44,212 nucleotides of DNA from an uncultured Pirellulales bacterium (lineage in GTDB: Bacteria; Planctomycetota; Planctomycetia; Pirellulales; CAYZVT01), in assembly GCA_964481585.1 (NCBI GenBank), contig CAYZVT010000001.1:1-44212 (forward strand). The letters run 5' to 3'. The notes under the pieces were generated by a model. It saw only the letters and a list, made by a program, of their open reading frames with translations. It did no database searches and was not told the origin of the DNA. The position numbers were made by a program, and so were the translations under genes. This document shows, piece by piece, positions 31,749-43,597 of this stretch; position 1 is the stretch's first letter, and every line of letters starts with the position of its first letter.

Positions 31749-32149
31749 ATTGGTGTAAAGCATTGGTGGCTAAGCAGTTTCGCCTGCGTCTTGTAGTGCC
31801 CCCTCATGGACGGGAACCACAAACCCTGTGACTAAGTGGAGCGGGCAATGCGGGGGTAAGACACAGCAACCCGCGCTTGGATCGCCGAGCGCGTCCGCCA
31901 GTGTCTGATTTTCCCGCCGGTCCAAGCGCCTGGCCAGCCTGCTGCGCAGCCGCGCCGGCGCGGCGTAACATGCGTACCACCATTCCGGTTACCTCAGTCT
32001 TGCCAGACCTACTGGAACAATTGAGGGGGTTGCGGTACACTAGGCGGACCCCACGGGTGGAGCGAGAACAGGCCTGGCATCCGCTACTGAATTTTCCCGA
32101 CAACGGCGCTTCTCGGCGCGCGCTGCGGGGCCTGCCAAGGAAATCTGCC

Positions 32150-33961
32150 ATGCCCGAACCCGAGGAACTGGCCTATCGGCGTTGGCTCGGCTGGAAGCAC
32201 TCAACCGCACCGAACCATTACGAACTGCTGGGCGTCCCTAGCGAGGTTGCCGACCCGGATCAAATCTCTGCGGCCGCGCAGCGGCGTCTGGCGCAACTGC
32301 GGCAAGCCCAGCCGACAGGCGACGCGGAGGCAGCGCAGCTCAAGCGGCTGCTGTACGAAGTGACGCGGGCGCGGCAGTGCCTAGTCGATCCGCAACTGCG
32401 TGCCCGCTATGACCGCAGCCTCGCCGCGCCGGCGCTGGAGCCGCTCGACTTGGCGCTCTGCCCGGACTTGCCGCTCGAACCGCTCCGCGCGCCCGTGGCG
32501 ATCGGTGGTCACTTGCCGCCCCGCCAAGTCCTGTCCCGTTCCCGCGCGCTGGGCAAGCTCTCCGCGGGCTGGTGGGCCGGTGCCGCCGGCTCGGGGTTGC
32601 TGCTGTTGACCGGCGGCTTGATTTACCTGACCCGCGACGCCGACGCGATCCCCGTCGCTCAAGCCGACGCGCCGAGCCGCGAAGAGGCGTCGGCCGACAA
32701 TGCGCCGCCTCCGCCGACGCCACCGCGTCCGTCCAATGCGCCTCAGCCGCAGCCGAATGAAGCGCCCTTGCCCACGCCGGAACCCGCGCTGCCGGCCCAG
32801 TCGCTCCCGAGCGGTCCGCCTCCCGCTCCGTTTGCCAGCCTGCCGGCCGAGACGGAGTTGCCCCGGCGCGTGCTCTCGCAGACATTGGGCGTCGAGGCTG
32901 CCGGTTCGCGGCGACTCGGCCCCGTAGCGCTGGCCGGACGCAAGTTGAGCGTCGCGCTTGACTGTTCGGCTTGCGATCTGCCCGGCAGTTATGCTTTTGT
33001 TGTCGAACCGCATCCCCAGAACGCCGAGCAATGGCTCGTGCGCCTTGCGCCGCGTCCTGCCGAGAACAATCCCGCGTCCGCAGAGGCGGCCGACTCGTCG
33101 CTCGCCGTCTTACCGGCATCGCTCGCGCCGGTGGCCTTGCTGACGGCGGCCGATGGGCAATTGGCGTTTCAGTGGAACGCGGAGAATACCGAGCCGCGGG
33201 CTGAACAGTTGCGCAACGCGGTGCTCCACCTGCGGGCCGGCGAGATGTCGCACGCGCTGCGGCTGCGCAGGGTGCGGCGCGTGCCGCCTTGGACGGTCGA
33301 CTTGGCCAGCGAGGCACACCGCATTGGCTTGGACCTGCCCCATCCGCCGCCGAGGGAGCAGTTGTTTTTGGAGATCACGGCGCTGGACGGTTTTGACCTG
33401 CAACTGGCGTACGTCGTGGCCGACCGCAAATTTGGCGTGGGCGAAGTGGCGGAGATTCCGATCCACGCCACCCCCGAGGCGAGCCTCAACCTGAGCTTGG
33501 TGCAACAGGACGAGGGTTGGGAGATCACCATCTTCAGCCATTACCAGATCGGTCGCCGCGCGACGGATTTACACGCCGAACAAGTGCGGACGACGCTGCT
33601 GGGTTTGAACAGGACGCTCCAGGAAAACGCCGCCGAGATGCGCGCCGCGCAAGCGGCGGTCGAAACGATCGGCCTCCGCTTGCGGTATCTACAGGGCCTG
33701 CCGGCTCCCACCGGGATAAGCCGCGAAATCCAGATGGCGGCACGGCTGCAAGAAGCGCGGAATCTGCAAGCGCAGCTCAAGAAGGCGCTAAGCACGATCC
33801 GCCGCTTTGAAAACTCGCTTCCCCGTACGCAGTTGGCGCTCCAGCAGATGACTTCCTTGGCGGCGGCTTGCACGGCACTGCATCAGCATGCGCGGGTCCA
33901 CTATCGCGTGGTGGCCGACACGCCCGCCGGGGAGCGGGAACTATCGATCGCCGGTCCCTAG
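32150..33961 (+). CDS. bitopic membrane protein: N-terminal J-like domain lacking HPD, TM, Pro-rich linker, beta-rich + coiled-coil C-terminal module
   Basis: ATG 32150 with AAGGA 9 nt upstream. In-frame TTG 31877 and ATG 31970 are possible but look non-protein-like. J-like sequence NHYELLGV...RRLAQLRQAQPTGD...LVDPQLRARYDRSL. TM segment at about 32567-32630. Confidence 0.65.
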   Translation: MPEPEELAYRRWLGWKHSTAPNHYELLGVPSEVADPDQISAAAQRRLAQLRQAQPTGDAEAAQLKRLLYEVTRARQCLVDPQLRARYDRSLAAPALEPLDLALCPDLPLEPLRAPVAIGGHLPPRQVLSRSRALGKLSAGWWAGAAGSGLLLLTGGLIYLTRDADAIPVAQADAPSREEASADNAPPPPTPPRPSNAPQPQPNEAPLPTPEPALPAQSLPSGPPPAPFASLPAETELPRRVLSQTLGVEAAGSRRLGPVALAGRKLSVALDCSACDLPGSYAFVVEPHPQNAEQWLVRLAPRPAENNPASAEAADSSLAVLPASLAPVALLTAADGQLAFQWNAENTEPRAEQLRNAVLHLRAGEMSHALRLRRVRRVPPWTVDLASEAHRIGLDLPHPPPREQLFLEITALDGFDLQLAYVVADRKFGVGEVAEIPIHATPEASLNLSLVQQDEGWEITIFSHYQIGRRATDLHAEQVRTTLLGLNRTLQENAAEMRAAQAAVETIGLRLRYLQGLPAPTGISREIQMAARLQEARNLQAQLKKALSTIRRFENSLPRTQLALQQMTSLAAACTALHQHARVHYRVVADTPAGERELSIAGP

Positions 33962-34022
33962 TTGATCGTCATGGCATTCGAGACGTAAGGCCACTTGTCC
34001 CTTGGAGCAAGAGCAAACAACG

Positions 34023-35375
34023 ATGAGCGCTTCGCGTGATTTGCGAATTCAGTTGCGGTCGCGGGTGACCTGCCCGCACTGCTGGAAAAGGTTTGCGCCG
34101 GAAGACGTGCTGTGGATCTCGACGCACCCGAGCCTGCTCGACGACCCGCTGTTGGGGAGCGACCACCAGCAGCGTTTTCTGCCGACGCGGTTTAATGTCG
34201 ATGGCAACGCAATCGACTCGCGCGGGTCCGTTTGTCAGGAGCTCGCCTGTCCGCATTGCCACCTGTCGGTGCCGCGGGCGTTATTGGAAGTCGCGCCGCT
34301 GTTTGTGTCGATCATGGGCACGCCGTCGTGCGGCAAGTCGTATTTTCTGGCCTCGATGACCTGGCAACTCCGCAAGCGGCTGCCGCAGTACTTCGCCATG
34401 ACGTTCGGCGACGCCGATCCGGTTTCGAACAAGATCGTGAACCACTACGAGGAAGAACAGTTCTTCAACCCCCGCCGCGATGAAGTCGTCAAGCTGGCGA
34501 AAACCGAAGAGCAAGGCGACCTGTACGACACGGTTCGCTATGGGGAGCAGGTGGTGACTTATCCGCGACCGTTTCTGTTCAGCGTTCATCCGGGGCGCGA
34601 CCATCCGCACCACGACAACGCCCGCAAGATCGCGCGAATCTTGTGCCTGTACGACAACGCCGGCGAATCGTTCGAGCCGGGCAAGGACACGGCGGCCAAT
34701 CCGGTGACGCGGCACTTGGCCCAATCGCAGGTGCTGATGTTCTGCTTCGATCCGACGCAAGATCCGCGCTTCCGCGACGCCTGCCGGGGCCATTCGCAAG
34801 ACCCGCAAGTGCTTGAACAGCCCGTTACCTCGCGGCAGGAAACCGTACTGCATGAAATCGCCGATCGCGTCCGCAAGCATACCAAGCTCAAGCAAGGAGA
34901 ACGCCACCAGCGGCCGCTGATCGTGATCGTCACCAAATACGACGCTTGGTGGCATCTGCTGGGCGAGCAGCACTTGGAATCCCCGTGGGTTTGGGGCCCG
35001 CAACAAAAATGGTGCGCTTTGCAAATGGCGCAGATCGACGACGTCTCGGCCCGGCTGCGGGCGGTGCTGTGGCAGCTCTGTCCCGAAATCGTCTCGGCCG
35101 CCGAGGGCTTTGCCGAACAGGTGGTCTACGTGCCGGTCAGCGCGACCGGCTGCGGCCCGCAGCGCGATCCGGCGACCGGCGCGCTGGGCGTGCGGCCGCG
35201 CGACATCAAGCCGCAATGGGTCGAAGTGCCGCTGCTGGTGGCGCTGGCCCGCTGGGGCGGCGGCATGATCGCCTACAAGCAACGCCCACGCTCGCAACCC
35301 CCTCATTCTCGTCCGGTCGCGGCCACCGCGCCGCCGTCGAGCAACGGCCATCCTCAGACGAAAGAGGCCCGATGA
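34023..35375 (+). CDS. Zn-ribbon + TRAFAC-class P-loop GTPase
   Basis: Two CPHC pairs (34071-34082 and 34248-34259). G1 GTPSCGKS (34317-34340). G3 DNAGE (34653-34667). G4 TKYD (34932-34943). G5-like VSATG. No TM segment. Confidence 0.8.
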   Translation: MSASRDLRIQLRSRVTCPHCWKRFAPEDVLWISTHPSLLDDPLLGSDHQQRFLPTRFNVDGNAIDSRGSVCQELACPHCHLSVPRALLEVAPLFVSIMGTPSCGKSYFLASMTWQLRKRLPQYFAMTFGDADPVSNKIVNHYEEEQFFNPRRDEVVKLAKTEEQGDLYDTVRYGEQVVTYPRPFLFSVHPGRDHPHHDNARKIARILCLYDNAGESFEPGKDTAANPVTRHLAQSQVLMFCFDPTQDPRFRDACRGHSQDPQVLEQPVTSRQETVLHEIADRVRKHTKLKQGERHQRPLIVIVTKYDAWWHLLGEQHLESPWVWGPQQKWCALQMAQIDDVSARLRAVLWQLCPEIVSAAEGFAEQVVYVPVSATGCGPQRDPATGALGVRPRDIKPQWVEVPLLVALARWGGGMIAYKQRPRSQPPHSRPVAATAPPSSNGHPQTKEAR

Positions 35376-37930
35376 GCCAGGAACTGATTTACACCTCCGC
35401 CCCGCGCGGCTTGAAAGTCGGCAGCCGGGGGTTTTGCACCGTCGCCAGTACACCCGGTATGGCCAAAAATCTGGCCGAACGGCTCGAAGCCCTGAGCGGC
35501 TATCGGCATGTCTTTCCGCCACAAGATCCGCAGGCCGCGCTCAACCCCGTGGCGTGGTCGTGCCTCGCGCTGCAACTGGGGCCACTGCGCTACTGGGTGC
35601 TTTCGCGCGTGGCCGACGCGGGGCTGGATTATTCGCAGCGCACCAATAAGCTCGCCCATCATTTGGTCCTGGCCCAAGGCGAACTGCCGGCCGCCGGCCC
35701 CGCCGCGACGCTTGCGCAGCCGGGCGTGATGGAGACCCGTTGGACGGGCGAGCCGCGCCTGCTCACCAGTGGTCGCCCGCTACCCAAGGGCGACGCGCCA
35801 CCGAGCGTCTGTCACGCTTGGCAGCAAACGGCCGGCGACGCCGGTTGGGCGGGCGTCCTGGCGCAAACGCTGATTGACGGCCCGCGCGAGGCGTGCTTAA
35901 TCTTCCGCCCGGGCCAAGACCTGCTGCCGCTGATCCGCGAGGCACAAGCCTTGCTGCCGGCTGCGCTGCGCTGGCAAGCGACGTTCAGTACCTACTACAC
36001 GAAACTGCCGGCGGGAGCCGAATGCGCGTGGCGGTGCGTCGTCGATGGCACGCCCGAAGCAACCGCCGCGCGGCGCGCGGCGCATGCCTTGGTGCTCGAC
36101 TTAACCCGTCCCCTCGGCGCCGCCCCACAAACCACGGCGACCACCGCCGCCCGGCAAGGCCAATTGCTCACCTTGCCCGCCCCGCGCAGCGCGACGCCCG
36201 ACGCCGCACCGGACGCCGCCACCCCCGAGTCCACCGCCGCCGGGCGGTCCAGCGGCGACTACGGCCTCGCGCCGCCCGCCCTGGTCCAACCGCCCGACCG
36301 AGGCTTCCCCCCGCCCCGCACCGGCGAACCCATCCGCTTCCACCGTCCCAAACGCCGCCGGCGCGGGATGTTGCTCGCGGCGTTAGTCGGACTCTTGGCG
36401 GGAATGGCAGGCGTGTGGGCCTGGCGTCAATATGGCACCGCCGCGCCCGTCGTAGCGACGGCCCCTAAAGCAGCGGCTGCATCGCCCGGCAAAGCGAAGC
36501 CCAAGAAAGTGGCGGAGAAGTCTGTAGAAACGGAGGCCGCTCGGCCCGTGCCGTCGGTGCCGGAGCAGAAAGATCGTGGCGCAGGTGGAGGCACTGCCAC
36601 ACCGCAAGGACGCGACATGGATGGCGACAATAATTCTTCGTCGAGGGACAGTGGTGACGCAGACCAACGCCAAAACTCAACGACCGAGACAGGCGGCGAA
36701 GGAGGATCGGAATCGACAGAGCCACGGAAAAAGAAGCATGCGGAAGCGCAAGAAGACAAGAAAGAGCCGAAGAAAGAGCCTCTCCCTAAACAAGAACCGG
36801 CAGCCAAGGATCCATTTGCCGACCTGCCGCTGGTGATTGTGATGAAAGAGACGGGAACTGGCAGCGGTTTGGGATCAGAACCAACCGACGATTCGATCAT
36901 CCTTCATGCCGATCCGAAATCTGTCGAGTTGGAGTTGATCCGGCTATTCGCAACTGCCCCGGGAGATGAACTTAAATTAAAAAATGAATCCGACGCAACA
37001 CAACGTACGTGGAACGTGATGTGGAATGCCACGTCGATTGGCAGCGTGAGCTTAACTTCCAACACGCCCAAAGAACGGCCTGCATCGGCGAAGCTCTCGT
37101 TCGAGTGGAAACTGCCCAAGGGCGAGGGCGAGGGCCTGAAGAAAAAAATTGCCGCATTCGGATTGCTCATTCGCGTGGGAAAAGAAAAGGTCGCTTGCCG
37201 GTGGATTACCGACAAGCCCTTGGCGACAAAAAATAGATTGACGCTTAGCCAGAGACACCAGGACGGCAGATTGATATTGCCAGGGTTACCTAAGGTGAAC
37301 TCACCGTTCGGATACGACCTTCAGATTCTTTCAGCTTCCTATCCCAATCCGAATCAATGGAACAAGAAGCTTTCTCGCGAGATGGTTTTGTTAGACTCGG
37401 GACCGATTGACAACACTGGCAATTACCATCGCCTCCTTTGCCGTTGCCGTCTGAGCCTTGACCACACCCAGTCAAGTATCGGATACGATCTTCGAGTCGT
37501 CGGCTTTACGCATGAACATACTCGAAGCCTGGAGTACGGCGAAAAGAGCATTGCAGACTGGCTTGAGCAGAACCGTGGGACTTCATCAGACAGGTTACAG
37601 CGCGTTACGAATGCTGAACAAAGGCGAGGCGATCTGAGCGGGGAAGTGGACGATATGACTCAACAACTTGAGAAAGCCCATGACAAAAATAAAAAGCAGA
37701 TAGAACAGCAGCTAGAAGACGCGAAAAAGAAGCTACGCAGCGCGGAGCATGAGCTAGCAAAGGTGCAATTTGACAAAGCCGTGGACGACTTTTCTCGGGC
37801 GCTTCAAAAGCAAGATGTCACGCTCTCCGTGCGCATCGTGCTTGTTGATCCTCAGAAACGCTTTCCTCCGGTTCCGGTTTTGGATTTTACTCGCGATACT
37901 CACAGCGAAACCCTTACGACGCGGAACTAA
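35372..37930 (+). CDS. GAP1-like (GTPase-associated protein 1-like) bitopic protein with charged low-complexity linker and low-GC C-terminal module
   Basis: Its ATG overlaps the GTPase stop (ATGA at 35372-35375). N-terminus MSQELIYTSAPRGLKVGSRGFCTVAS...DYSQRTNKLAHHLVL. TM segment at about 36368-36424. K/E/D/S-rich linker. The C-terminal 350 aa are encoded at 40-45% GC. Confidence 0.7.
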   Translation: MSQELIYTSAPRGLKVGSRGFCTVASTPGMAKNLAERLEALSGYRHVFPPQDPQAALNPVAWSCLALQLGPLRYWVLSRVADAGLDYSQRTNKLAHHLVLAQGELPAAGPAATLAQPGVMETRWTGEPRLLTSGRPLPKGDAPPSVCHAWQQTAGDAGWAGVLAQTLIDGPREACLIFRPGQDLLPLIREAQALLPAALRWQATFSTYYTKLPAGAECAWRCVVDGTPEATAARRAAHALVLDLTRPLGAAPQTTATTAARQGQLLTLPAPRSATPDAAPDAATPESTAAGRSSGDYGLAPPALVQPPDRGFPPPRTGEPIRFHRPKRRRRGMLLAALVGLLAGMAGVWAWRQYGTAAPVVATAPKAAAASPGKAKPKKVAEKSVETEAARPVPSVPEQKDRGAGGGTATPQGRDMDGDNNSSSRDSGDADQRQNSTTETGGEGGSESTEPRKKKHAEAQEDKKEPKKEPLPKQEPAAKDPFADLPLVIVMKETGTGSGLGSEPTDDSIILHADPKSVELELIRLFATAPGDELKLKNESDATQRTWNVMWNATSIGSVSLTSNTPKERPASAKLSFEWKLPKGEGEGLKKKIAAFGLLIRVGKEKVACRWITDKPLATKNRLTLSQRHQDGRLILPGLPKVNSPFGYDLQILSASYPNPNQWNKKLSREMVLLDSGPIDNTGNYHRLLCRCRLSLDHTQSSIGYDLRVVGFTHEHTRSLEYGEKSIADWLEQNRGTSSDRLQRVTNAEQRRGDLSGEVDDMTQQLEKAHDKNKKQIEQQLEDAKKKLRSAEHELAKVQFDKAVDDFSRALQKQDVTLSVRIVLVDPQKRFPPVPVLDFTRDTHSETLTTRN

Positions 37931-37932
37931 CC

Positions 37933-40851
37933 ATGCTGCGCCAGCACCAGTTTATTGATGAGATTCAGCAGGCCGTGTATGCGCCGATGTCGGCGGAGCC
38001 GGAGTTGTTGCGGGATGCGGCGGCGGAGTATAGCGAGGCGTGTAGCACGGCCAATGCGCGGCTGCGGCAGGTGGGTTACTTGTTGCGGCAGGGGCTGCGG
38101 AGCGAGGCGCTGCAGGAGGCCGAACGCGAGCCGAACTTGCTCGATCTGGTCGCGCTGCTCGATTTTCCCGAGGCACCGGTCTGGTGTGCGCTGTTGCAAC
38201 AGTGGGGCATGGCGACGCCGCCGGCGCTGGCGGTCGATGTCGCGGCCGATCTGAATCAAGCCTACGCCGATCAAGAGCCGCTCAAAGAGATGCTCAAAAA
38301 GCATCGGCTGTTGGCCCTGGCCCGTGCGCCGCTCCATGCCCGCATCCATACTTTGCGGCGCATCCGCCAGGCCGATCCGGACAACGCCGCCTGGTATGCC
38401 GATCTCCAAGCGTTGGAAGAAGCCCGGCTGAATCAACTCGCCCAGGAAGCGGAGCGGGCCTTTGCGCGGGCGGATGCCGAGCAACTGCGTGCCCTGGCGT
38501 CGGAACTGCAAGCGGGCGACTGGCTCGCGCCCCCCGCGCCGGAACTTGTGGCCCGCGTGCGGCAACTCGAACAACAGATCGCTGCGAGACAAGCGCGGCT
38601 GGCGCTGGAGCAGTTGGAGCCGGAATTGACGGCAGCCTACGCCGCCTTCGATGTGGAAGCAGGCGCTGCGCTCCGCACGCGCTGGGAAGCACTGGCCGCC
38701 CAGGCGCAGCTTGCGCCTCACGACCCGCTGGCCGAACGGGCGGAGCCGGCGCTGGAATGGTTGGCCGACCAGGATGAGCTGGCCGCTCGCCGCGCGGCGC
38801 ATCAGGCGGCGGTCTATCGGCTGGAGGAAGCGCTGGCCGACGATGCTACGCCTGGACAACTCGAAAAGCTCTACCATGCCGTGCCCGACCACGAGGAGGG
38901 CGTGCCGCTTCCGTTGCAAAATCGCCTCCGCGCGCGGGTTGCCGCCGCCGAGCTGAACCAGCGCCGCAAGCACATGCTGACCGTGGTCGGCATCGCGGGG
39001 GGATTGCTGCTCGTCGCCGGCGTGGTTTTTATGCTCCTGCGGATGCAACAGCACGGCCGGCAGGTCACCGCGAGCACGCAAAGCTTACGGCAACTGATCG
39101 ACCATGGCCGCTTGGACGAAGCCGACCAGTTTTTCGATAACCTCCGCACGAGCGCTCCCAAAGTCGCCGAAGCCGCCGAAGTCCAACAGCAGCTTGGCCG
39201 ACTGCGCGGCGCGCAATCCGACGAACAAGCACGCCGCGCGGCGTTCACCCAGGCGATCGAGCAAGCCGAAGCGGCAGGTCCAGAGCAGCCCGACGAAACG
39301 GCGCTGGAACTGGCCCGCGAAAAAGTCCGCACCGACAGCGAAAAGGCACGCCTCTCGCGATTTGAATCGGCCGTCGCCGCAGCCCGCCGCGCACAGCAGA
39401 AAGCGCGGGACGACATATTTTTGGCGAAACTCGCAGCGCTGCGCGACAAGCTCGCCCAGTTGGAAGAAAGCACCCGCGAGAATGAACAGTCGGAAGCGGA
39501 GCTTGCGCAGCTGGCCGCCGAGCTGCGCAGCCTGCGCGAGAGCAACGGGCTGGTCACGCGGTCGATCTTGGCCCAAGCCGATCCGTTGATCGTACGGACC
39601 GACGCGCTGCGCAAGCATGTGCGGACGCGGATCGCGCAGCAAAAGCAGTTGCGTGAAATCACTACTGCCGTGGGCGACGTGTCACGATTCAGCGAAGAGT
39701 TGGCGCGGTTTGCCACGCTGTATCCCGAAGCCGCCTCCGCCGCGGCGTTCCGCACGGTGGCTCAGGAAGCCGATACTTGGCAGGGCATGGTCGAATGGTC
39801 GCAACTGCTGGCCGCGCCCGAGCTGCGCCGACTCGCCGCGCTTTCGCCCAAGGCGGCCCAAGCGTTGTTGATGCGCGGCCAGGCGCTGCGGCAGCGTTAT
39901 GCCGGGATTCCGCTGGCGGAAGAGTTCGCCGACAAGGAACCGTACCTGCAGGACTTGGCGCAGCGGCAATTCGACTCCGACGATCCGCCCTCCGCTGCCG
40001 CGCCGCAAAACCAGACGAAGCAACTCCTGAACGATCCGCTCATCGCCAACATCTGGATGGTGCAAGAGGCCGACGGCACGCGCTACTATCTGACGCGCAA
40101 GCCGGACATGAGCAATGCCAGCGCGACGGGACGGGTGGCGATCGAGTACCTCGCCGGCTTCGATCTGAAAACGCAGCGCGCCGGCATTGAGACGCGCACC
40201 TTGACCTACAATGACGAAGCGCCGCAAACGCGGGCGGCCCGCCGGTGCCTGGAGCATCTCCGTGATCTGACGGCGAATAACTGGGAGGAGACGTATTTTC
40301 GGCTGTTGAAAGAAGTGCTCGACGACGAGCAAATCGACCCGATCCTCAAGCTGGTACTGGTCCAGCGCATCGCCTCGCATGGCGGGCTGGCGAGCACCAT
40401 CTTCCGCACCGCTTGGGAGCCGTGCGAACGGCATCTGAAAAGCGCCGAATTGCAACTTGGCGCGCCGTGGATGCTGCCCCGCGACGACGAGGCCGTGCAG
40501 GCCCGCAACGCCGCCGAGCATGTGCTCGCGACGCTTCCCCCCTGGAATGAAGCGGCGCGCGCGGCGGCGACGAAGCTGCGCGAGGTCCAGGCGCCGCCGC
40601 GGCATCAGTACCACTGGATCGGCTGGCTGGAGCATGATCCGCAGGCGGGCTGGCGGTGCCGCACGCCGAGCGGCGCGTTCTCCGACGGGAATTTGCTGGT
40701 GATCTATCGTCCGGCAGATGCCCAGCGGGCGGAACTCGCGCCCGTGGCCACGCGATCGGGCGGTAGCATCACCTGGCAGGCCGAAACCTCGACGGCATTT
40801 CAAGCCGGACGTCCCATTTTTTTACAAGTCACGGGCCGAGCCACGAAGTGA
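37933..40851 (+). CDS. 972-aa predominantly helical bitopic membrane protein
   Basis: ATG lies 2 nt after the previous stop. About 350-aa N-terminal helical region. One TM segment (MLTVVGIAGGLLLVAGVVFMLL, about 38974-39042). Long A/E/Q/R-rich coiled-coil stretch, then a globular C-terminal region. Confidence 0.7.
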   Translation: MLRQHQFIDEIQQAVYAPMSAEPELLRDAAAEYSEACSTANARLRQVGYLLRQGLRSEALQEAEREPNLLDLVALLDFPEAPVWCALLQQWGMATPPALAVDVAADLNQAYADQEPLKEMLKKHRLLALARAPLHARIHTLRRIRQADPDNAAWYADLQALEEARLNQLAQEAERAFARADAEQLRALASELQAGDWLAPPAPELVARVRQLEQQIAARQARLALEQLEPELTAAYAAFDVEAGAALRTRWEALAAQAQLAPHDPLAERAEPALEWLADQDELAARRAAHQAAVYRLEEALADDATPGQLEKLYHAVPDHEEGVPLPLQNRLRARVAAAELNQRRKHMLTVVGIAGGLLLVAGVVFMLLRMQQHGRQVTASTQSLRQLIDHGRLDEADQFFDNLRTSAPKVAEAAEVQQQLGRLRGAQSDEQARRAAFTQAIEQAEAAGPEQPDETALELAREKVRTDSEKARLSRFESAVAAARRAQQKARDDIFLAKLAALRDKLAQLEESTRENEQSEAELAQLAAELRSLRESNGLVTRSILAQADPLIVRTDALRKHVRTRIAQQKQLREITTAVGDVSRFSEELARFATLYPEAASAAAFRTVAQEADTWQGMVEWSQLLAAPELRRLAALSPKAAQALLMRGQALRQRYAGIPLAEEFADKEPYLQDLAQRQFDSDDPPSAAAPQNQTKQLLNDPLIANIWMVQEADGTRYYLTRKPDMSNASATGRVAIEYLAGFDLKTQRAGIETRTLTYNDEAPQTRAARRCLEHLRDLTANNWEETYFRLLKEVLDDEQIDPILKLVLVQRIASHGGLASTIFRTAWEPCERHLKSAELQLGAPWMLPRDDEAVQARNAAEHVLATLPPWNEAARAAATKLREVQAPPRHQYHWIGWLEHDPQAGWRCRTPSGAFSDGNLLVIYRPADAQRAELAPVATRSGGSITWQAETSTAFQAGRPIFLQVTGRATK

Positions 40852-40895
40852 GCACGAATCTCGCCTTCGCTTTTTGGAAACGTGAGGTGTCAATC

Positions 40896-41410
40896 ATGGA
40901 ACAAGCACTCTACATCCGCATTCGCGGCCGGGTTCAAGGTCCCTTCGAACCGGACAAGCTCAAGGCGCTCGCCAAGCGAGGGCAACTGAGCCGGATGCAT
41001 CAGGTTTCTCCCGACGGCGCGAACTGGCAGCGGGCGAGCGATTATCCCGACCTGTTCGTCACGACCGCGACCGTGCCGGCAGCCGCGATGGGCAACGGCG
41101 CAGTGGGTAACGGCGCGGCGAGCGCGCCCGCGTTTGAGGAGCAAACGACTTCGGCCGAACCGCTGGGGGCGCAAGGCTCGGCCCAATGGTACTACGCCAA
41201 GGGGGAGAGCCAATTCGGTCCCACCGACTTTGAGCACTTGCGGCAACTTGCCGCCAGCGGCCAACTCCGCCCTCAGGATGCCGTCTGGAGCGAAGGCATG
41301 AGCGGTTGGGCCACGGCCGACAGCATCGCCGGGCTAACCTTTGGCGCCGCGCCGCAAGTCGCCGGCTCTGAACACGGGGTGCATGGTTCTCAGACGAGCA
41401 TAGCCGGCCG
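40896..41410 (+). CDS. GYF-GYF domain protein, N-terminal part of a frameshifted gene
   Basis: ATG 40896 with a GTGAGGTG SD sequence. GYF_2-like motifs ALYIRIRGRVQGPFEPDKLKALAKRGQL and QWYYAKGESQFGPTDFEHLRQLAASGQLRPQDAVWSEGMSGWATADSI. After about 41410 the frame turns Arg/Gly-rich and junk-like, although it stays open to 42014. Confidence 0.55.
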
Positions 41411-41414
41411 GCCG
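41403..41414 (+). repeat. (GCCG)3 tetranucleotide tract at the GYF-gene frame junction
   Basis: Read directly: gccg gccg gccg at 41403-41414. Removing one unit fuses the two frames. Confidence 0.9.
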
Positions 41415-41454
41415 CACGTCGCGTCGCGAGAGTACGGAAGTCAGCGACAGCATC

Positions 41455-41856
41455 GTGCGGCCGCTGTTGGCTTCCAAAGGCTGGGTGACATTTCTCGGGG
41501 TCTTTGCGATTATCTTGGGCGGCATTGCGCTCTTGCCGGCCATGTTGCTCTTTTCCGCAGCGGCCCGCGAACCGGAGGTGCTGTTTCTAGGTCTCAGCCC
41601 TCTGCTGAACTGCGCGGTCTTAGTCACGACCGGAGTGCTGCTGCTGGGCTACAGCGGGGCAATCCGCGACCTGGCCTATACGCCCAGCACCGTGCGACTC
41701 GCCGCCGCGATGCGGAAACTCTCGACCTTCTGGACGTTCGCGGGGATTGTGGCGCTCGTGTTCCTGGGGCTCACGGTGGTGGTGGTTTTATTGATGGTCC
41801 TGGGACTGGTCGGCATGGCGGCTGCGCTGTCCGACGTGATGCTTCTGACTCTCTAA
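41455..41856 (+). CDS. polytopic membrane module (C-terminal part of the GYF gene, or a separate GTG-initiated ORF)
   Basis: The frame is open from 41404. It predicts 3-4 TM helices (WVTFLGVFAIILGGIALLPAMLLF, VLVTTGVLLLGY, FWTFAGIVALVFLGLTVVVVLLMVLGLVGM). Its stop lies 15 nt before the MotA-like start, matching the operon packing. Confidence 0.55.
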   Translation: MRPLLASKGWVTFLGVFAIILGGIALLPAMLLFSAAAREPEVLFLGLSPLLNCAVLVTTGVLLLGYSGAIRDLAYTPSTVRLAAAMRKLSTFWTFAGIVALVFLGLTVVVVLLMVLGLVGMAAALSDVMLLTL

Positions 41857-41871
41857 CTCGATCGGACCCTT

Positions 41872-42786
41872 ATGAATCTTTCGGCTACGACCGAGGCCTC
41901 GGCGGCCGCATCGGCGTCCAACCTAACTGGGCAAGAGCCGACCTTGTCGTGGGCCCGCCGCGACTTGGAGCAGCGGCTCGGCTTTCGCGGGGCGCGCTTC
42001 ACGCGCGTGAATAATCTGTTGTCGTTTCTGCTCGCGGGAGTGGCGACCGTCGGATTCTATCTGTTGCTGCTGCCGATCGCCGAGACGCCCCTGGCGGCGA
42101 TGTTTACCGAGCGCGGCCCGACTCCTTACTTCATCGCCTTCTTCTCCTGTTGGTCGCTGGCGATCCTGCTGCTTAAATGGGGGAAGCTGAAATTGCAGCG
42201 CCAAGCGCTCGCGCATCGCGTCGTGCCCGACGATCCGACCTTTGTGCTCTCGCCTAGCACGGCCGACGATGTGATGCACCGCATTTACGCCACGGTCGAT
42301 GATCCCCGGCATTTCTTGCTTTTCAATCGGATCGTGATCGCGCTGTCGAACCTTCGCAATCTGGGCCGCGTCTCCGATGTGGATGAGATTCTCCGCTCGC
42401 AAGCCGAACACGACGAGTCGTCGGTCGAAACCAGCTACGCGCTGCTCAAAGGCTTTATCTGGGCGATTCCGGTGCTGGGGTTCATCGGCACGGTGCTGGG
42501 CTTGTCGCAGGCCATCGGCGGCTTCGGCAGCGTGCTGGGCAATTCGCAAGACCTGAGCCAAATCGCCGCTTCGCTGAAGGGCGTGACGGCCGGGCTGGCA
42601 ACCGCTTTTGAAACGACGCTGGCCGCACTGGTTGCCGCGCTGGCGATTCAAATGCTGTTCACGTTCCTCAAAAAGTCCGAGGAAGAGTTTCTGGACGAGT
42701 GCGCCGAGTATTGCCATCGCCATGTGGTCAACCGCCTGCGGCTGATGCCGTTTGAATCCCAGGATGCGCAGCATGTCGCGTCGTAA
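41872..42786 (+). CDS. MotA/TolQ/ExbB proton-channel family protein
   Basis: 304 aa. TM helices plus the family signature region FIWAIPVLGFIGTVLGLSQAIGGF....LKGVTAGLATAFETTLAALVAALAIQMLF. Confidence 0.85.
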   Translation: MNLSATTEASAAASASNLTGQEPTLSWARRDLEQRLGFRGARFTRVNNLLSFLLAGVATVGFYLLLLPIAETPLAAMFTERGPTPYFIAFFSCWSLAILLLKWGKLKLQRQALAHRVVPDDPTFVLSPSTADDVMHRIYATVDDPRHFLLFNRIVIALSNLRNLGRVSDVDEILRSQAEHDESSVETSYALLKGFIWAIPVLGFIGTVLGLSQAIGGFGSVLGNSQDLSQIAASLKGVTAGLATAFETTLAALVAALAIQMLFTFLKKSEEEFLDECAEYCHRHVVNRLRLMPFESQDAQHVAS

Positions 42787-43597
42787 TCGGGATGTCACGC
42801 CATTTTCACTGTTCGCGTTTCAGGACATCATCACCGCGGTGACGGGCATCATCGTGCTGGTGACGCTGCTGTTGGCGCTGGACCTGTTCACCCGCAAGCC
42901 GAACACGCCCGACCTCGATACCCATGCGCTGGCCGAACAGGCTCGCCGGGCGATTGCCGCCGCGCAGGCGGAGCAGGTCGAGTTGGAGGCGCAACGGGCG
43001 CAGGATCAGACGGTCGTGTTGGCAACCGCCCGTCTTTCGCCGAGCGAGGTGGAACGGCGGCGGTACGATCTCACGCAGGAAAGTGCCCAGTTGCGGCGTG
43101 AATTGTCCGAGCTGGACGCGCAAGTGGCCCGTGCGGCGGCGGCCCGCGACAAACTGGAAGCGGAGCGTTACGAACGGCGCGACGACGCCGAGCAGCTCGC
43201 CGCGCTGCGGGCGCAGTTGGCGGCGCTCGAGGCGAAGCTGGCGGAGTTGGAGCAGTCGGAGCGGATGATTTACAACTTGCCCCCCGACGCCGAGAAGCAA
43301 GCCTGGCTGGTCGAGGTGGGCGAGGAGGAAGTGCAAGTGGCCCGCGCGGGGATCGACGAGCCGCCGCAAACGTACTCTGCCCGCGAGACTGTGCTCAGCG
43401 ACTCGCCGCTGACGGAATGGATTCGCACGCGCCAGCCAGCTCGCGAGTACTTCGTGCTTTTGGTGCGCCCGCAGGGGGTCCGCGTTTTCGACGACTTGCG
43501 CGAGCATTTGCGCCGGGAGGGATTTGAATACGGCTTCGATCTCATCGGCCGGGACGTGACGGTGTTTGACCCGGAACATGGAGCCGCCGCACCATGA
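42773..43597 (+). CDS. ExbD/TolR-like single-pass protein with inserted coiled-coil stalk
   Basis: ATG 42773 (AGGA SD sequence) overlaps the MotA-like gene by 14 nt. N-terminus FSLFAFQDIITAVTGIIVLVTLLLAL is ExbD-like. About 100-aa A/E/Q/R heptad region. C-terminus YFVLLVRPQGVRVFDDLREHLRREGFEYGFDL is ExbD-periplasmic-domain-like. Confidence 0.6.
   Translation: MSRRNRDVTPFSLFAFQDIITAVTGIIVLVTLLLALDLFTRKPNTPDLDTHALAEQARRAIAAAQAEQVELEAQRAQDQTVVLATARLSPSEVERRRYDLTQESAQLRRELSELDAQVARAAAARDKLEAERYERRDDAEQLAALRAQLAALEAKLAELEQSERMIYNLPPDAEKQAWLVEVGEEEVQVARAGIDEPPQTYSARETVLSDSPLTEWIRTRQPAREYFVLLVRPQGVRVFDDLREHLRREGFEYGFDLIGRDVTVFDPEHGAAAP

What the first reader, a model, noticed from the sequence alone, without database searches (positions are those of the whole stretch)
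36900..37930. Abrupt low-GC island coinciding exactly with the C-terminal module of the GAP1-like gene
Seen, from hand counts of 60-nt windows.
- Inside the island: 36961-37020 = 24/60 GC, 37321-37380 = 26/60, 37681-37740 = 24/60 (40-43%).
- Just outside: 45/60 at 36301-36360 and 43/60 at 37981-38040, the latter immediately after the next start codon at 37933.

GC begins to fall at about 36600, in the charged linker, and recovers abruptly at the gene boundary. Inference: the extracytoplasmic C-terminal module (beta-rich region plus K/E-rich coiled coil) was acquired or swapped recently by recombination. This is the pattern expected for a diversifying specificity or sensor module in a conflict system. 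The alternative is strong amino-acid compositional constraint (Lys/Asn/Ile/Asp-rich sequence).
Basis: seen in the sequence. Interest (0 to 1): 0.72.

Follow-up and report, generated by a model that had tools for sequence, protein, structure and literature searches.

The report
Hypervariable low-GC ectodomain of GAP1
The low-GC stretch is real and is the outward-facing end of a membrane protein from a predicted planctomycete defence system; this end is hypervariable between strains while everything around it stays conserved, and its low GC is a permanent feature of the whole protein family, not a sign of recent foreign origin.

Summary
Observation confirmed. GC falls from about 0.71 to 0.51 inside gene 35372-37930 (GAP1-N2 family, 852 aa). 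The fall starts just after the single transmembrane helix (about 36450) and ends at the stop codon. Synonymous sites shift too: four-fold-site GC is 0.59, against 0.86-0.90 elsewhere. Amino-acid composition alone therefore cannot explain it.

- Family-wide, not a one-off: 55 of 55 complete homologous genes from other Planctomycetota show the same drop, bounded by the TM helix and the stop codon. Module GC tracks host GC (r = 0.80) with a constant offset.
- No foreign source: an exhaustive search of 1.84 billion proteins found only the query itself. Profile comparison shows a very divergent member of the family's own ectodomain.
- Cassette-like and hypervariable in relatives: in four pairs of related homologous loci from other Planctomycetota, identity collapses only in this module. 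In the closest pair, 4.5 kb are 100% identical, then identity drops to 61-91%. Identity returns at or near the stop codon wherever downstream sequence is held.
- Selection: dN/dS is 2.1 in the closest pair and 0.4-0.5 in older pairs, against 0.07 in the cytoplasmic half.

No sister strain of this window exists, so a recent swap here cannot be shown. The cause of the low GC remains inferred.

The parts
34002..35375 (+). DO-GTPase-like gene directly upstream, overlapping the GAP1 start by 4 nt. It has two CxxC pairs (CPHC...CPHC) and a Walker A motif (GTPSCGKS).
   Evidence: Pfam DO-GTPase2 E 1.1e-5, 25.6 bits, just under the cut-off of 27. It is 72% identical to the gene at the same position in L084. 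The motifs are read from the translation. GC3 is 0.79.
35372..37930 (+). GAP1-N2 family gene, 852 aa, ATG start (MSQELIYTS), stop at 37928-37930.
   Evidence: ORF and start. There are 1137 homologs, and the named ones are all Planctomycetota.
35372..35761 (+). GAP1-N2 domain (aa 1-130), cytoplasmic, GC about 0.65-0.70.
   Evidence: Pfam PF20013, E 1.7e-28. It is 52-64% identical to all 119 homologs.
35810..36109 (+). GAP1-M domain (aa 147-246), cytoplasmic.
   Evidence: Pfam PF20014, E 1.3e-14.
36110..36364 (+). Cytoplasmic Pro/Ala-rich linker ending in RFHRPKRRRR. This is the highest-GC part of the gene (up to 0.81, GC3 0.90).
36365..36430 (+). Single transmembrane helix (aa 332-353, GMLLAALVGLLAGMAGVWAW). 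The basic residues before it predict an N-in / C-out topology.
   Evidence: Hydropathy scans. 52 of the 55 homologous loci have a helix at aa 321-371.
36431..36811 (+). Extracytoplasmic charged, low-complexity linker (K/E/S/T/G/P-rich). GC3 and codon adaptation drop here.
   Evidence: GC3 0.56. CAI-like index falls from 0.61 to 0.51.
36812..37927 (+). Hypervariable ectodomain module (372 aa). Beta-rich part about 36884-37534, helical hairpin about 37550-37807, terminal beta-hairpin about 37820-37888. GC 0.51, GC3 0.57.
   Evidence: Composition. AF2 model pLDDT 68. The same order of elements appears in the pLDDT 89.5 model of the P0029 ectodomain. hhalign to the family ectodomain gives 91% probability, E 1e-6, over the W / LxFxW / LRNCLL-type motif region. 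The only sequence relative is P0002. The exhaustive search found only the query itself.
36614..37980 (.). Low-GC island as delimited by cumulative GC deviation (GC 0.514).
37933..40851 (+). Downstream conserved gene, 972 aa, mostly helical with one TM helix at about aa 346-368. Normal GC (0.66, GC3 0.77). It forms the 3' conserved flank of the cassette.
   Evidence: Its first 114 aa are 67.5% identical to the L085 homolog. No Pfam or PDB match.
40848..41760 (+). GYF x2 plus TM-rich gene, the planctomycete partner of GAP1-N2 systems. It is frameshifted in this window near 41340-41400.
   Evidence: Pfam GYF_2, E 1.1e-26. tblastn of homologs splits between two frames.
41872..43597 (+). MotA/ExbB-like gene (41872-42786) and a 281-aa gene with one TM helix and a coiled coil (42752-43597). 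Both are conserved at the end of the operon.
   Evidence: Pfam MotA_ExbB, E 1.9e-12. Weak ZorA hits in PADLOC. The same gene order occurs in L083, L087 and L088.

Best explanation
The island is the extracytoplasmic part (linker plus ectodomain) of a single-pass membrane GAP1-N2 protein. This protein belongs to a DO-GTPase/GAP1 conflict system of a planctomycete.

Shown:
- The cytoplasmic GAP1-N2 and GAP1-M domains, the upstream GTPase and the downstream genes are conserved. The ectodomain is a family-specific beta-rich module followed by a helical hairpin, and it is hypervariable.
- In related strains of other Planctomycetota it behaves as an intragenic replacement cassette. Divergent alleles are exchanged, with break points in the conserved flanks: the GAP1 N-terminal coding region on one side, and the 3' end of the gene or the next gene on the other.
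- Amino-acid change in the ectodomain is positively selected.
- The low GC, including at synonymous sites, is a steady-state property of this cassette throughout the family. It is about 0.08 below the host flanks and 0.13 below the N-terminal domain. It is not a trace of recent foreign origin.

Inferred:
- The ectodomain is the specificity or sensor surface of the system. It would meet an external, fast-changing partner such as a phage particle or another cell, and signal through the TM helix to GAP1-N2/M and the GTPase switch.
- The low GC arises because bacterial mutation is AT-biased. The forces that normally hold GC high would act weakly on a segment that is too divergent for ordinary homologous exchange and is repeatedly swept by selection. 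Those forces are GC-biased gene conversion and selection on codon usage.
For: Composition
- establish the island and its synonymous-site shift.

Family-wide pattern
- 55 of 55 complete homologous genes have lower GC in the last 360 codons than in the first 270 (mean -0.133). GC3 is lower in 54 of 55 (mean -0.17).
- Profiles aligned on the TM helix show GC3 of 0.72-0.77 in the cytoplasmic domains, easing to about 0.64-0.68 in the linker and TM helix, 0.58 just after the helix and 0.51-0.56 at the end. GC returns to flank level within 90 nt of the stop.
- The control gene downstream shows a contrast of only -0.027.
- Module GC tracks host GC: r = 0.80, slope 1.08.

Hypervariability
- Pairs with 100%, 99% and 93% N-terminal identity have 58%, 50% and 53% C-terminal identity. 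Some pairs at 85-88% N-terminal identity have no detectable C-terminal similarity.
- L027 against L029: GTPase 87%, GAP1 N part 78%, GAP1 C part 22%, next gene 63%.
- The window against its closest relative: 72%, 61%, about 25% and 67.5%.

Cassette behaviour
- L007 against L081: 100% nucleotide identity over 4.5 kb, then 61-91% from just after the TM helix. Identity returns about 90 nt before the stop.
- L082 against L083: 99-100%, then 33-83%, then 96-100% at the stop codon. A boundary zone has dS 0.33 and dN 0.065.
- L086/L087 and L088/L001 behave the same way. The latter is mosaic.

Selection
- Post-TM dN/dS is 1.68, or 2.14 on confidently aligned codons (bootstrap CI 1.36-3.99), in the closest pair.
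- It is 0.37-0.52 in older pairs.
- It is 0.07-0.08 in the cytoplasmic half in the two pairs where that half has diverged, 0.07 in the GTPase and 0.20 in the downstream gene.

Homology
- hhalign 91%, E 1e-6, plus a co-linear motif alignment.
- The two AF2 models share the same order of secondary-structure elements.

System context
- Pfam hits and Kaur et al. 2020, PMC7159879.

Background for the GC inference
- AT-biased mutation opposed by selection or gBGC: PMC2936529 and PMC4450053.
- A weak link between the degree of hypervariability and the GC3 drop: Spearman -0.44, p = 0.01.
Against: - No sister strain of this window is on record, so cassette exchange is shown only for homologous loci.
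- The sensor role is untested. The system is only computationally predicted, and no ligand or fold analog is known.
- The proposed cause of the low GC is not demonstrated. Substitutions could not be polarised. The correlation with hypervariability is weak. Three high-GC loci (L050, L054, L059) show almost no drop.
- The cytoplasmic linker is also poorly conserved yet has a GC3 of 0.9 in the window. Poor conservation alone therefore does not lower GC.
- An AT-rich allele pool carried by unknown mobile elements would give the same constant offset.
- The GYF-TM partner gene is frameshifted here, so the system may be inactive in this genome, or the assembly may carry an error.
- The pairs come from metagenome assemblies. 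Chimeric contigs cannot be wholly excluded, although four independent pairs agree.
Confidence: 0.7

Rival explanations
1. One-off recent horizontal acquisition: this genome recently received a foreign low-GC C-terminal module, and the GC has not yet ameliorated.
For: There is an abrupt compositional break and atypical codon usage (CAI-like 0.50 against 0.74). The module is an orphan at sequence level.
Against: - The same break occurs in 55 of 55 homologous genes across hosts with GC 0.44-0.71, and module GC tracks the host.
- The module is a remote homolog of the family's own ectodomain.
- Its only relative, P0002, also ranks first for the N-terminal domain by bit score.
- There are no hits in phages, plasmids, viral contigs or 1.84 billion representative proteins.
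- No repeats or mobile-element marks flank it.
Confidence: 0.05
2. Targeted hypermutation: a local mutator, such as a DGR-like retroelement, a deaminase or error-prone repair, diversifies the ectodomain-coding DNA and drives it towards AT.
For: - dS in the module is above zero (0.064) while 4.5 kb of flank has no difference at all in L007/L081.
- Multi-nucleotide changes are clustered, and transitions are fewer than transversions (130 against 164).
- dN/dS exceeds 1.
- The low GC is sharply confined to one segment in the whole family.
Against: - The 44-kb window holds no reverse transcriptase, template repeat or silent copy.
- The substitutions are not adenine-specific: 63% involve an A, against about 60% expected from composition.
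- A and T rise symmetrically at four-fold sites (19% and 22%), so there is no strand asymmetry.
- Many indels and mosaic blocks occur, and one pair has dS up to 1.8, too much for recent mutation.
- The variable tract is about 1.4 kb, far longer than known DGR variable regions.
Confidence: 0.1
3. Alleles are exchanged with an AT-rich mobile gene pool: ectodomain cassettes circulate on phages or other elements of Planctomycetota, which are typically AT-richer than their hosts. That would give a host-tracking offset.
For: The slope is about 1 with a negative offset of the kind I recall for phages and plasmids relative to their hosts (the phage/plasmid pattern is from my own knowledge, Rocha and Danchin 2002). 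Imported divergent alleles are demonstrated.
Against: - No GAP1 relative was found in 2.9 million viral contigs.
- The module has no phage or plasmid match.
- A viral structure library gives no match to the family ectodomain.
- Exchange break points lie in chromosomal conserved flanks, with no element borders.
Confidence: 0.1
4. Composition is set by protein or translation needs: Lys/Glu/Asp/Asn/Ser-rich sequence, or selected rare codons that slow translation for membrane translocation.
For: The module is enriched in K (9.3% against 2.4%), E, D and S, and depleted in A. GC2 falls from 0.60 to 0.40.
Against: - Four-fold-site GC falls from 0.86-0.90 to 0.59 regardless of which amino acid is encoded.
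- Other exported or membrane proteins in the window (DUF1559 pseudopilins, PEP-CTERM proteins, FecR/Laminin_G anti-sigma factors, MotA-like) show normal GC3. No other coding window falls below 0.63.
- The effect spans about 500 codons, not the tens of codons seen with known pause sites.
Confidence: 0.04
5. The domain is decaying: the ectodomain is under relaxed constraint and drifting towards AT as it loses function.
For: dN/dS is five to seven times higher than in the cytoplasmic half. 9 of 80 homologous loci have premature stops within or before the module.
Against: - 55 genes retain intact reading frames of about 500 post-TM codons.
- dN/dS is 0.37-0.52 in older pairs, which indicates purifying selection, and above 1 in the youngest pair, which indicates positive selection.
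- Motifs are conserved, and a confident fold is predicted (pLDDT 89.5).
- Many of the truncated genes come from long-read MAGs (isolate names prefixed MFD). I suspect, without having checked, that these are prone to frameshift errors.
Confidence: 0.03

Closest known systems
GAP1-N2-type DO-GTPase conflict systems (Kaur, Burroughs, Iyer, Aravind, eLife 2020, PMC7159879)
   Same: - GAP1-N2 and GAP1-M domains.
- A GTPase gene directly upstream, with zinc-ribbon-like CxxC pairs.
- A C-terminal TM helix on GAP1.
- A GYF-domain partner typical of planctomycetes.
- Constant core components combined with a highly variable, non-enzymatic part proposed to sense an invader.
   Different: - The passages of the paper that I read place the variability in FNIII-repeat partners and effector domains. 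They do not mention an intragenic hypervariable ectodomain cassette in GAP1 itself, sharp recombination break points, dN/dS above 1 or a family-wide GC drop.
- No FNIII domain is detectable here. The partner is a 972-aa helical single-pass membrane protein.
Replacement flexible genomic islands exchanged by homologous recombination (Lopez-Perez et al. 2014, PMC4033161)
   Same: - The genomic position is the same in all strains.
- The flanks are conserved and the content is unalignable or very divergent.
- The product is exposed on the cell surface.
- Boundary zones carry mostly synonymous substitutions: L082/L083 have dS 0.33 and dN 0.065 at the 5' border.
- There are no mobile-element marks.
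   Different: Here the replaced unit is part of one gene (about 1.4 kb), not a multi-gene cluster. It belongs to a predicted signalling or defence protein, not to a glycosylation or O-chain locus.
Polymorphic toxin, CDI and Rhs C-terminal cassettes
   Same: A constant N-terminal part is joined to a variable C-terminal part with a sharp demarcation. The cassette is exchanged between strains. From my own recollection, not checked here, such cassettes often have lower GC.
   Different: There is no toxin domain and no variable immunity gene. The gene downstream is conserved (63-95% in the pairs). The variable part is anchored to the cell by a TM helix and is not delivered.
Diversity-generating retroelement (DGR) target genes
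   Same: Hypervariability is confined to the C-terminal, ligand-binding end of a surface protein, with dN above dS.
   Different: There is no reverse transcriptase or template repeat. The changes are not adenine-specific. The tract is about ten times longer and contains indels.
Type I restriction HsdS target-recognition domains, type IV pilins and phage receptor-binding tail-fibre tips
   Same: Variable recognition domains are swapped by recombination between conserved segments, under diversifying selection. From my own recollection, they are often AT-richer than the genome.
   Different: The folds and functions are unrelated, and this is an analogy of evolutionary mode only. No structural match was found to tail fibres or any solved protein.

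Membership tests
GAP1-N2-type DO-GTPase system (Kaur et al. 2020) | GAP1-N2 N-terminal domain | tested here: met
   Pfam PF20013, E 1.7e-28, 99.9 bits against a cut-off of 24.
GAP1-N2-type DO-GTPase system (Kaur et al. 2020) | GAP1-M middle domain | tested here: met
   Pfam PF20014, E 1.3e-14, 54.7 bits against a cut-off of 24.
GAP1-N2-type DO-GTPase system (Kaur et al. 2020) | GAP1-C globular domain | tested here: inconclusive
   The region after GAP1-M matches no Pfam family except coiled-coil noise. It is a linker, a TM helix and the ectodomain instead. I could not check whether a GAP1-C model exists in the library.
GAP1-N2-type DO-GTPase system (Kaur et al. 2020) | DO-GTPase gene directly upstream of GAP1, usually with N-terminal zinc ribbons | tested here: met
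   Pfam DO-GTPase2, E 1.1e-5, 25.6 bits, slightly under the cut-off of 27. The sequence shows Walker A (GTPSCGKS) and two CPHC pairs. The position is conserved in L081, L083, L084 and L088.
GAP1-N2-type DO-GTPase system (Kaur et al. 2020) | Partner protein with rapidly evolving FNIII repeats | tested here: not met
   No FNIII hit in any operon protein, even at E up to 5. The 972-aa partner looks helical from its sequence and has one TM helix. This was a sequence-level test only.
GAP1-N2-type DO-GTPase system (Kaur et al. 2020) | In planctomycetes: a linked gene with paired GYF domains fused to a TM-rich region or to trypsin | tested here: met
   GYF_2, E 1.1e-26, two stretches. The TM-rich tail is present but in another reading frame.
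DGR target gene | Nearby reverse transcriptase and a template repeat about 90% identical to the variable region | tested here: not met
   No second copy of the module was found by blastn or tblastn in the window. No RT domain occurs among the 39 ORFs scanned.
DGR target gene | Variation restricted to adenine positions of the template | tested here: not met
   The L007/L081 spectrum is AG 88, AC 59, CG 48, CT 42, AT 37, GT 20, with indels present.
Polymorphic toxin / CDI-type C-terminal cassette | Variable C-terminal toxin domain followed by a co-varying immunity gene | tested here: not met
   No toxin family hit. The downstream gene is conserved, and identity returns at the stop codon.
Replacement-type island exchanged by homologous recombination | Same location, conserved flanks, divergent content, no mobile-element borders, flank zones enriched in synonymous changes | tested here: met
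   This was shown for homologous loci, not for the window itself, and the unit is intragenic.

The most novel reading that the evidence does not exclude
The GAP1-N2 ectodomain could be a population-level variable receptor of a bacterial immune or self/non-self recognition system, working in the manner of variable immune receptors. Its diversity would be produced or maintained by a locus-specific regime, either targeted mutagenesis or programmed allele exchange. The family-wide AT enrichment, confined to the base pair between the membrane helix and the stop codon, would be the footprint of that regime.
Probability: 0.15. Interest if true: 0.85.

Novelty: new variant of a known kind. Interest (0 to 1): 0.62.

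Why it matters
GAP1/DO-GTPase systems are known only from comparative genomics, and nobody knows what they sense.

- **A testable sensor surface.** The outward-facing end of GAP1 is the fastest-evolving, positively selected and recombinationally exchanged part of the operon. That points to a concrete specificity determinant. Cultured Planctomicrobium strains carry the system, so ectodomain swaps and phage or cell-contact assays are feasible.
- **A natural experiment on GC.** One reading frame shows a drop of about 0.2-0.3 in synonymous-site GC, reproduced in more than 50 species across a wide range of genomic GC. This could help separate mutation bias, biased gene conversion and selection.
- **A caution for genome scanning.** A sharp low-GC island does not have to mean recent foreign DNA.

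Tried and rejected
- **Foreign origin.** An exhaustive phmmer search of the module against 1.84 billion representatives found only the query itself. tblastn against phages and blastn against plasmids found nothing. No GAP1 relative was found in IMG/VR. The ectodomain alignment was too variable to scan collections with.
- **Fold assignment.** The window module model has pLDDT 68 and the P0029 ectodomain model 89.5. Neither has a PDB match with E at or below 0.001 (TM at most 0.22). The P0029 model has no BFVD match either. Pfam gives only coiled-coil noise, with Phage_scaffold at 19-20 bits against a cut-off of 35. PADLOC gives nothing for GAP1 beyond a weak coiled-coil hit to LmuB.
- **Diversification machinery.** No silent cassettes, template repeats, flanking repeats or meaningful tandem repeats were found.
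- **Strand-specific deamination.** Rejected, because A and T rise equally at four-fold sites.
- **[quoted passage not shown].** Rejected, because other exported proteins in the window have normal GC3.
- **Source contig.** A look-up of the window's own protein returned nothing on record.
- **Sequence clustering of C-modules.** This gave 76 components, with the window a singleton. A profile built from the window plus P0002 recruited no further members. Only the profile-profile comparison linked the window's module to the family.


Full report
**1.

The window averages 0.637 GC. A cumulative-deviation analysis delimits a single island at 36614-37980 (1366 nt, GC 0.514). No other 1300-nt window falls below 0.592 (mean 0.638, sd 0.019).

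The island lies wholly inside one reading frame, 35372-37930 (852 aa, start MSQELIYTS). GC recovers at the next start codon, 37933.

- GC1/GC2/GC3 are 0.72/0.60/0.80 for codons 1-360, 0.68/0.54/0.56 for the following 120 codons and 0.56/0.40/0.57 for the last 372 codons.
- At four-fold degenerate sites, GC is 0.905 in the N-terminal part, 0.856 in 21 other genes of the window and 0.59 after the membrane helix. A and T rise equally, to 19% and 22%.
- A codon-adaptation index referenced to the other genes is 0.724 in the N part and 0.498 in the C-module, against a background of 0.736 (sd 0.046, minimum 0.624).

**2. What the gene is**

Pfam finds GAP1-N2 (E 1.7e-28) and GAP1-M (E 1.3e-14) at aa 1-130 and 147-246. 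The rest of the protein reads, in order:
- a Pro/Ala-rich linker ending in RFHRPKRRRR;
- one transmembrane helix (aa 332-353);
- a charged low-complexity linker;
- a 372-aa module predicted to be beta-rich, followed by a long helical hairpin and a terminal beta-hairpin.

The basic cluster before the helix predicts an N-in / C-out topology, so the low-GC part is the extracytoplasmic part.

The neighbouring genes are:
- upstream, a DO-GTPase-like gene (Pfam 25.6 bits against a cut-off of 27, Walker A GTPSCGKS, two CPHC pairs);
- downstream, a 972-aa helical single-pass membrane protein, a GYF x2 plus TM gene, a MotA/ExbB-like gene and a 281-aa gene with one TM helix and a coiled coil.

This matches the GAP1-N2-type GTPase-centric conflict systems predicted by Kaur et al. 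(eLife 2020, PMC7159879). That paper notes C-terminal TM segments on GAP1 and a GYF partner in planctomycetes. Homologs carrying a source name are Pirellulales or Thermoguttaceae, and all 80 related genome loci are Planctomycetota. The rest of the window carries planctomycete-typical families such as DUF1559, PSD/PSCyt and PEP-CTERM.

**3. The low GC is not a one-off: it is a property of the whole family**

An N-terminal alignment (A1) retrieved 80 loci from species-representative genomes.
- In all 55 complete genes, the last 360 codons have lower GC than the first 270 (mean -0.133, range -0.034 to -0.265). The window's value is -0.196.
- GC3 is lower in 54 of 55 (mean -0.17).
- Aligned on the TM helix, mean GC3 is 0.72-0.77 in the cytoplasmic domains, 0.64-0.68 around the linker and helix, 0.58 in the first 30 codons after the helix and 0.51-0.56 at the end. 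GC is back at flank level within 90 nt after the stop codon.
- The gene immediately downstream, of similar length, shows only -0.027 in the same contrast.
- Module GC follows host flank GC (r = 0.80, slope 1.08, intercept -0.13) across hosts from 0.44 to 0.71 GC.

A shared foreign pool of fixed composition, or a single recent transfer, does not predict this.

**4. No foreign source, and remote homology to the family's own ectodomain**

- All 119 homologs are 52-64% identical to the window protein over the N-terminal 330 aa.
- The C-module gives a BLASTP hit only to P0002 (25% identity, E 2.6e-5). P0002 also ranks first for the N-terminal domain by bit score (61% identity; a few homologs are up to 64.5% identical over shorter stretches).
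- An exhaustive HMMER scan of 1.84 billion representative proteins with the module returned only the query itself.
- Phage and plasmid collections gave nothing. No GAP1 relative occurs in 2.9 million viral contigs.
- A profile of the window plus P0002 aligns to the profile of the largest C-module cluster with 91% probability (E 1e-6). The match covers the first beta subdomain (W ... LxFxW ... LRNCLL-type motifs).
- A 16-sequence alignment is co-linear from the LP motif to the terminal beta-hairpin.
- The window model (pLDDT 68) and a confident model of the P0029 ectodomain (pLDDT 89.5, pTM 0.84) share the same order of elements.
- Neither model has a significant analog in the PDB. The P0029 model has none in a viral structure library either.

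The module is thus an extremely diverged member of a family-specific ectodomain, not an alien domain.

**5. The module is hypervariable and behaves as a cassette**

I compared 162 family members all against all.

| N-terminal identity | C-terminal (last 330 aa) identity |
|---|---|
| 100% | 58.5% |
| 99.2% | 50.3% |
| 93% | 53% |
| several pairs at 84-88% | no detectable similarity |

Gene by gene, the ectodomain is the outlier.

| Comparison | GTPase | GAP1 N part | GAP1 C part | Next gene | Source |
|---|---|---|---|---|---|
| L027 vs L029 | 87% | 78% | 22% | 63% | |
| Window vs closest relative (L084/L085) | 72% | 61% | about 25% | 67.5% | |

L027 against L029 also gives 46% for the GYF gene and 85% for the MotA-like gene.

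At the DNA level, four pairs of related loci show the same picture.

| Pair | Flanks | Post-TM part of GAP1 | Recovery |
|---|---|---|---|
| L007 / L081 | 100.0% over 4.5 kb (two upstream genes plus GAP1 codons 1-360) | 61-91%, with indels | identical again about 90 nt before the stop, to the contig end |
| L082 / L083 | 99-100% over GAP1 nt 1-840, then about 87% for 300 nt | 33-83% | 96-100% exactly at the stop codon / next start |
| L086 / L087 | 81-92% | down to 52% | 88-91% at the stop |
| L088 / L001 | 88-95% | one mosaic block at 59-70% | — |

Sixteen of the 80 contigs end inside GAP1, twelve of them at aa 313-558. Strain heterogeneity breaking assemblies at this point would produce that pattern.

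**6. Selection and recombination**

Estimates use the Nei-Gojobori method.

| Pair and region | dN | dS | dN/dS |
|---|---|---|---|
| L007/L081, cytoplasmic half | 0 | 0 | — |
| L007/L081, post-TM | 0.225 | 0.134 | 1.68 |
| L007/L081, 321 confidently aligned post-TM codons | 0.137 | 0.064 | 2.14 (bootstrap 95% CI 1.36-3.99) |
| L082/L083, cytoplasmic half | 0.003 | 0 | — |
| L082/L083, post-TM | 0.45 | 0.86 | 0.52 |
| L086/L087 and L088/L001, post-TM | — | — | 0.37 and 0.38 |
| L086/L087 and L088/L001, cytoplasmic half | — | — | 0.07 and 0.08 |
| L086/L087, GTPase gene | — | — | 0.07 |
| L086/L087, downstream gene | — | — | 0.20 |

A 5' border zone in L082/L083 has dS 0.33 and dN 0.065.

Synonymous divergence that is large in the module and zero in the flanks shows import of divergent alleles, or local hypermutation. 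A ratio above 1 in the youngest pair shows positive selection on amino-acid change. Ratios below 1 in older pairs show that the domain is functional, not decaying.

The border zone rich in synonymous changes and the absence of mobile-element marks resemble the replacement flexible genomic islands exchanged by homologous recombination (PMC4033161). Here the pattern occurs within a single gene.

**7. Alternatives tested**

- *DGR-like or other local diversifier.* The window holds no reverse transcriptase, template repeat or silent copy. Substitutions are not adenine-specific, transitions number 130 against 164 transversions, and indels are common. Four-fold sites show no strand asymmetry. This is not excluded, but it is not favoured.
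- *Codon slowing for export.* Other exported and membrane proteins in the window have normal GC3.
- *Decay.* Frames are intact, purifying selection acts at depth, and the fold is confidently predicted.

**8. Why the GC is low (inferred, not shown)**

The offset is constant, tracks the host and affects all codon positions. It is confined to the segment that is hypervariable.

The explanation I favour has two parts. Bacterial mutation is AT-biased, and GC is normally held up by selection or GC-biased gene conversion (PMC2936529, PMC4450053). A segment too divergent for ordinary homologous exchange, and subject to repeated sweeps, would escape those forces and sit nearer the mutational equilibrium.

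The support is modest. More hypervariable lineages show larger GC3 drops (Spearman -0.44, p = 0.01), and the slowly diverging trio L050/L054/L059 shows almost no drop.

An AT-rich mobile allele pool would produce the same offset and cannot be excluded. One point counts against "poor conservation is enough": the cytoplasmic linker is poorly conserved, yet its GC3 is 0.9 in the window.

**9. Verdict**

The module is indeed a diversifying, recombinationally exchanged extracytoplasmic module of a conflict system. The low GC is a standing property of this module class, not evidence of recent or foreign acquisition. A recent swap in this genome cannot be tested, because no close relative is on record.

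The system type is known. The intragenic hypervariable, low-GC ectodomain cassette of planctomycete GAP1-N2 proteins is not mentioned in the parts of the describing paper that I read. I therefore file it as a new variant of a known kind.

Noticed in passing
window 40848-41860: The GYF x2 plus TM-rich partner gene appears frameshifted. Homologs' GYF part aligns to the frame of ORF 40848.. (about 40896-41340). Their TM-rich tail aligns to another frame (about 41407-41755). This explains the apparently low GC3 with normal GC at 41268-42014. It could be a pseudogene, an assembly error or a programmed shift.
   Followed up: partly
window 41872-43597; also L083 13091-14448, L087 8691-9923, L088 11100-12195: The operon ends with a MotA/ExbB-like protein that weakly matches ZorA models of the Zorya defence system (E 4.5e-6). 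It is followed by a protein with one TM helix and a coiled coil. The pair is conserved in homologous loci, which suggests a stator-like unit coupled to the GAP1 system.
   Followed up: no
L003, L004, L005, L010, L016, L019, L036, L052, L068, L071, L072, L080 and others: 16 of 80 genome contigs end inside the GAP1 gene, 12 of them at aa 313-558, where the hypervariable part begins. 9 further loci in long contigs carry premature stops at aa 244-592. The causes could be strain heterogeneity, long-read indel errors or real truncations.
   Followed up: partly
window 31877-34002 compared with L083 2407-4670, L084 532-3209, L088 1-2720: Homologous operons have a gene of about 208-232 aa between the first gene and the GTPase gene. 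The window has a single 694-aa ORF (weak DnaJ hit at aa 113-179) and no room for that small gene.
   Followed up: no
L007 4600-4860 and L081 4600-4890: Just after the TM helix, these alleles carry different numbers and arrangements of a repeated coiled-coil unit (KELHKLKAE-type). Repeat expansion and contraction therefore adds to the variation.
   Followed up: no
P0029 ectodomain (last 372 aa), model m7ebcc5fc8f84: This is a confident model (pLDDT 89.5, pTM 0.84): two beta-rich subdomains, a long helical hairpin and a terminal beta-hairpin. It has no significant analog in the PDB or in a viral structure library, so the fold arrangement may be undescribed.
   Followed up: partly
L052 and L057 (both from MAG 'clean381'): One genome carries two GAP1-N2 loci, so paralogous copies exist in some genomes. 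They could serve as recombination partners.
   Followed up: no
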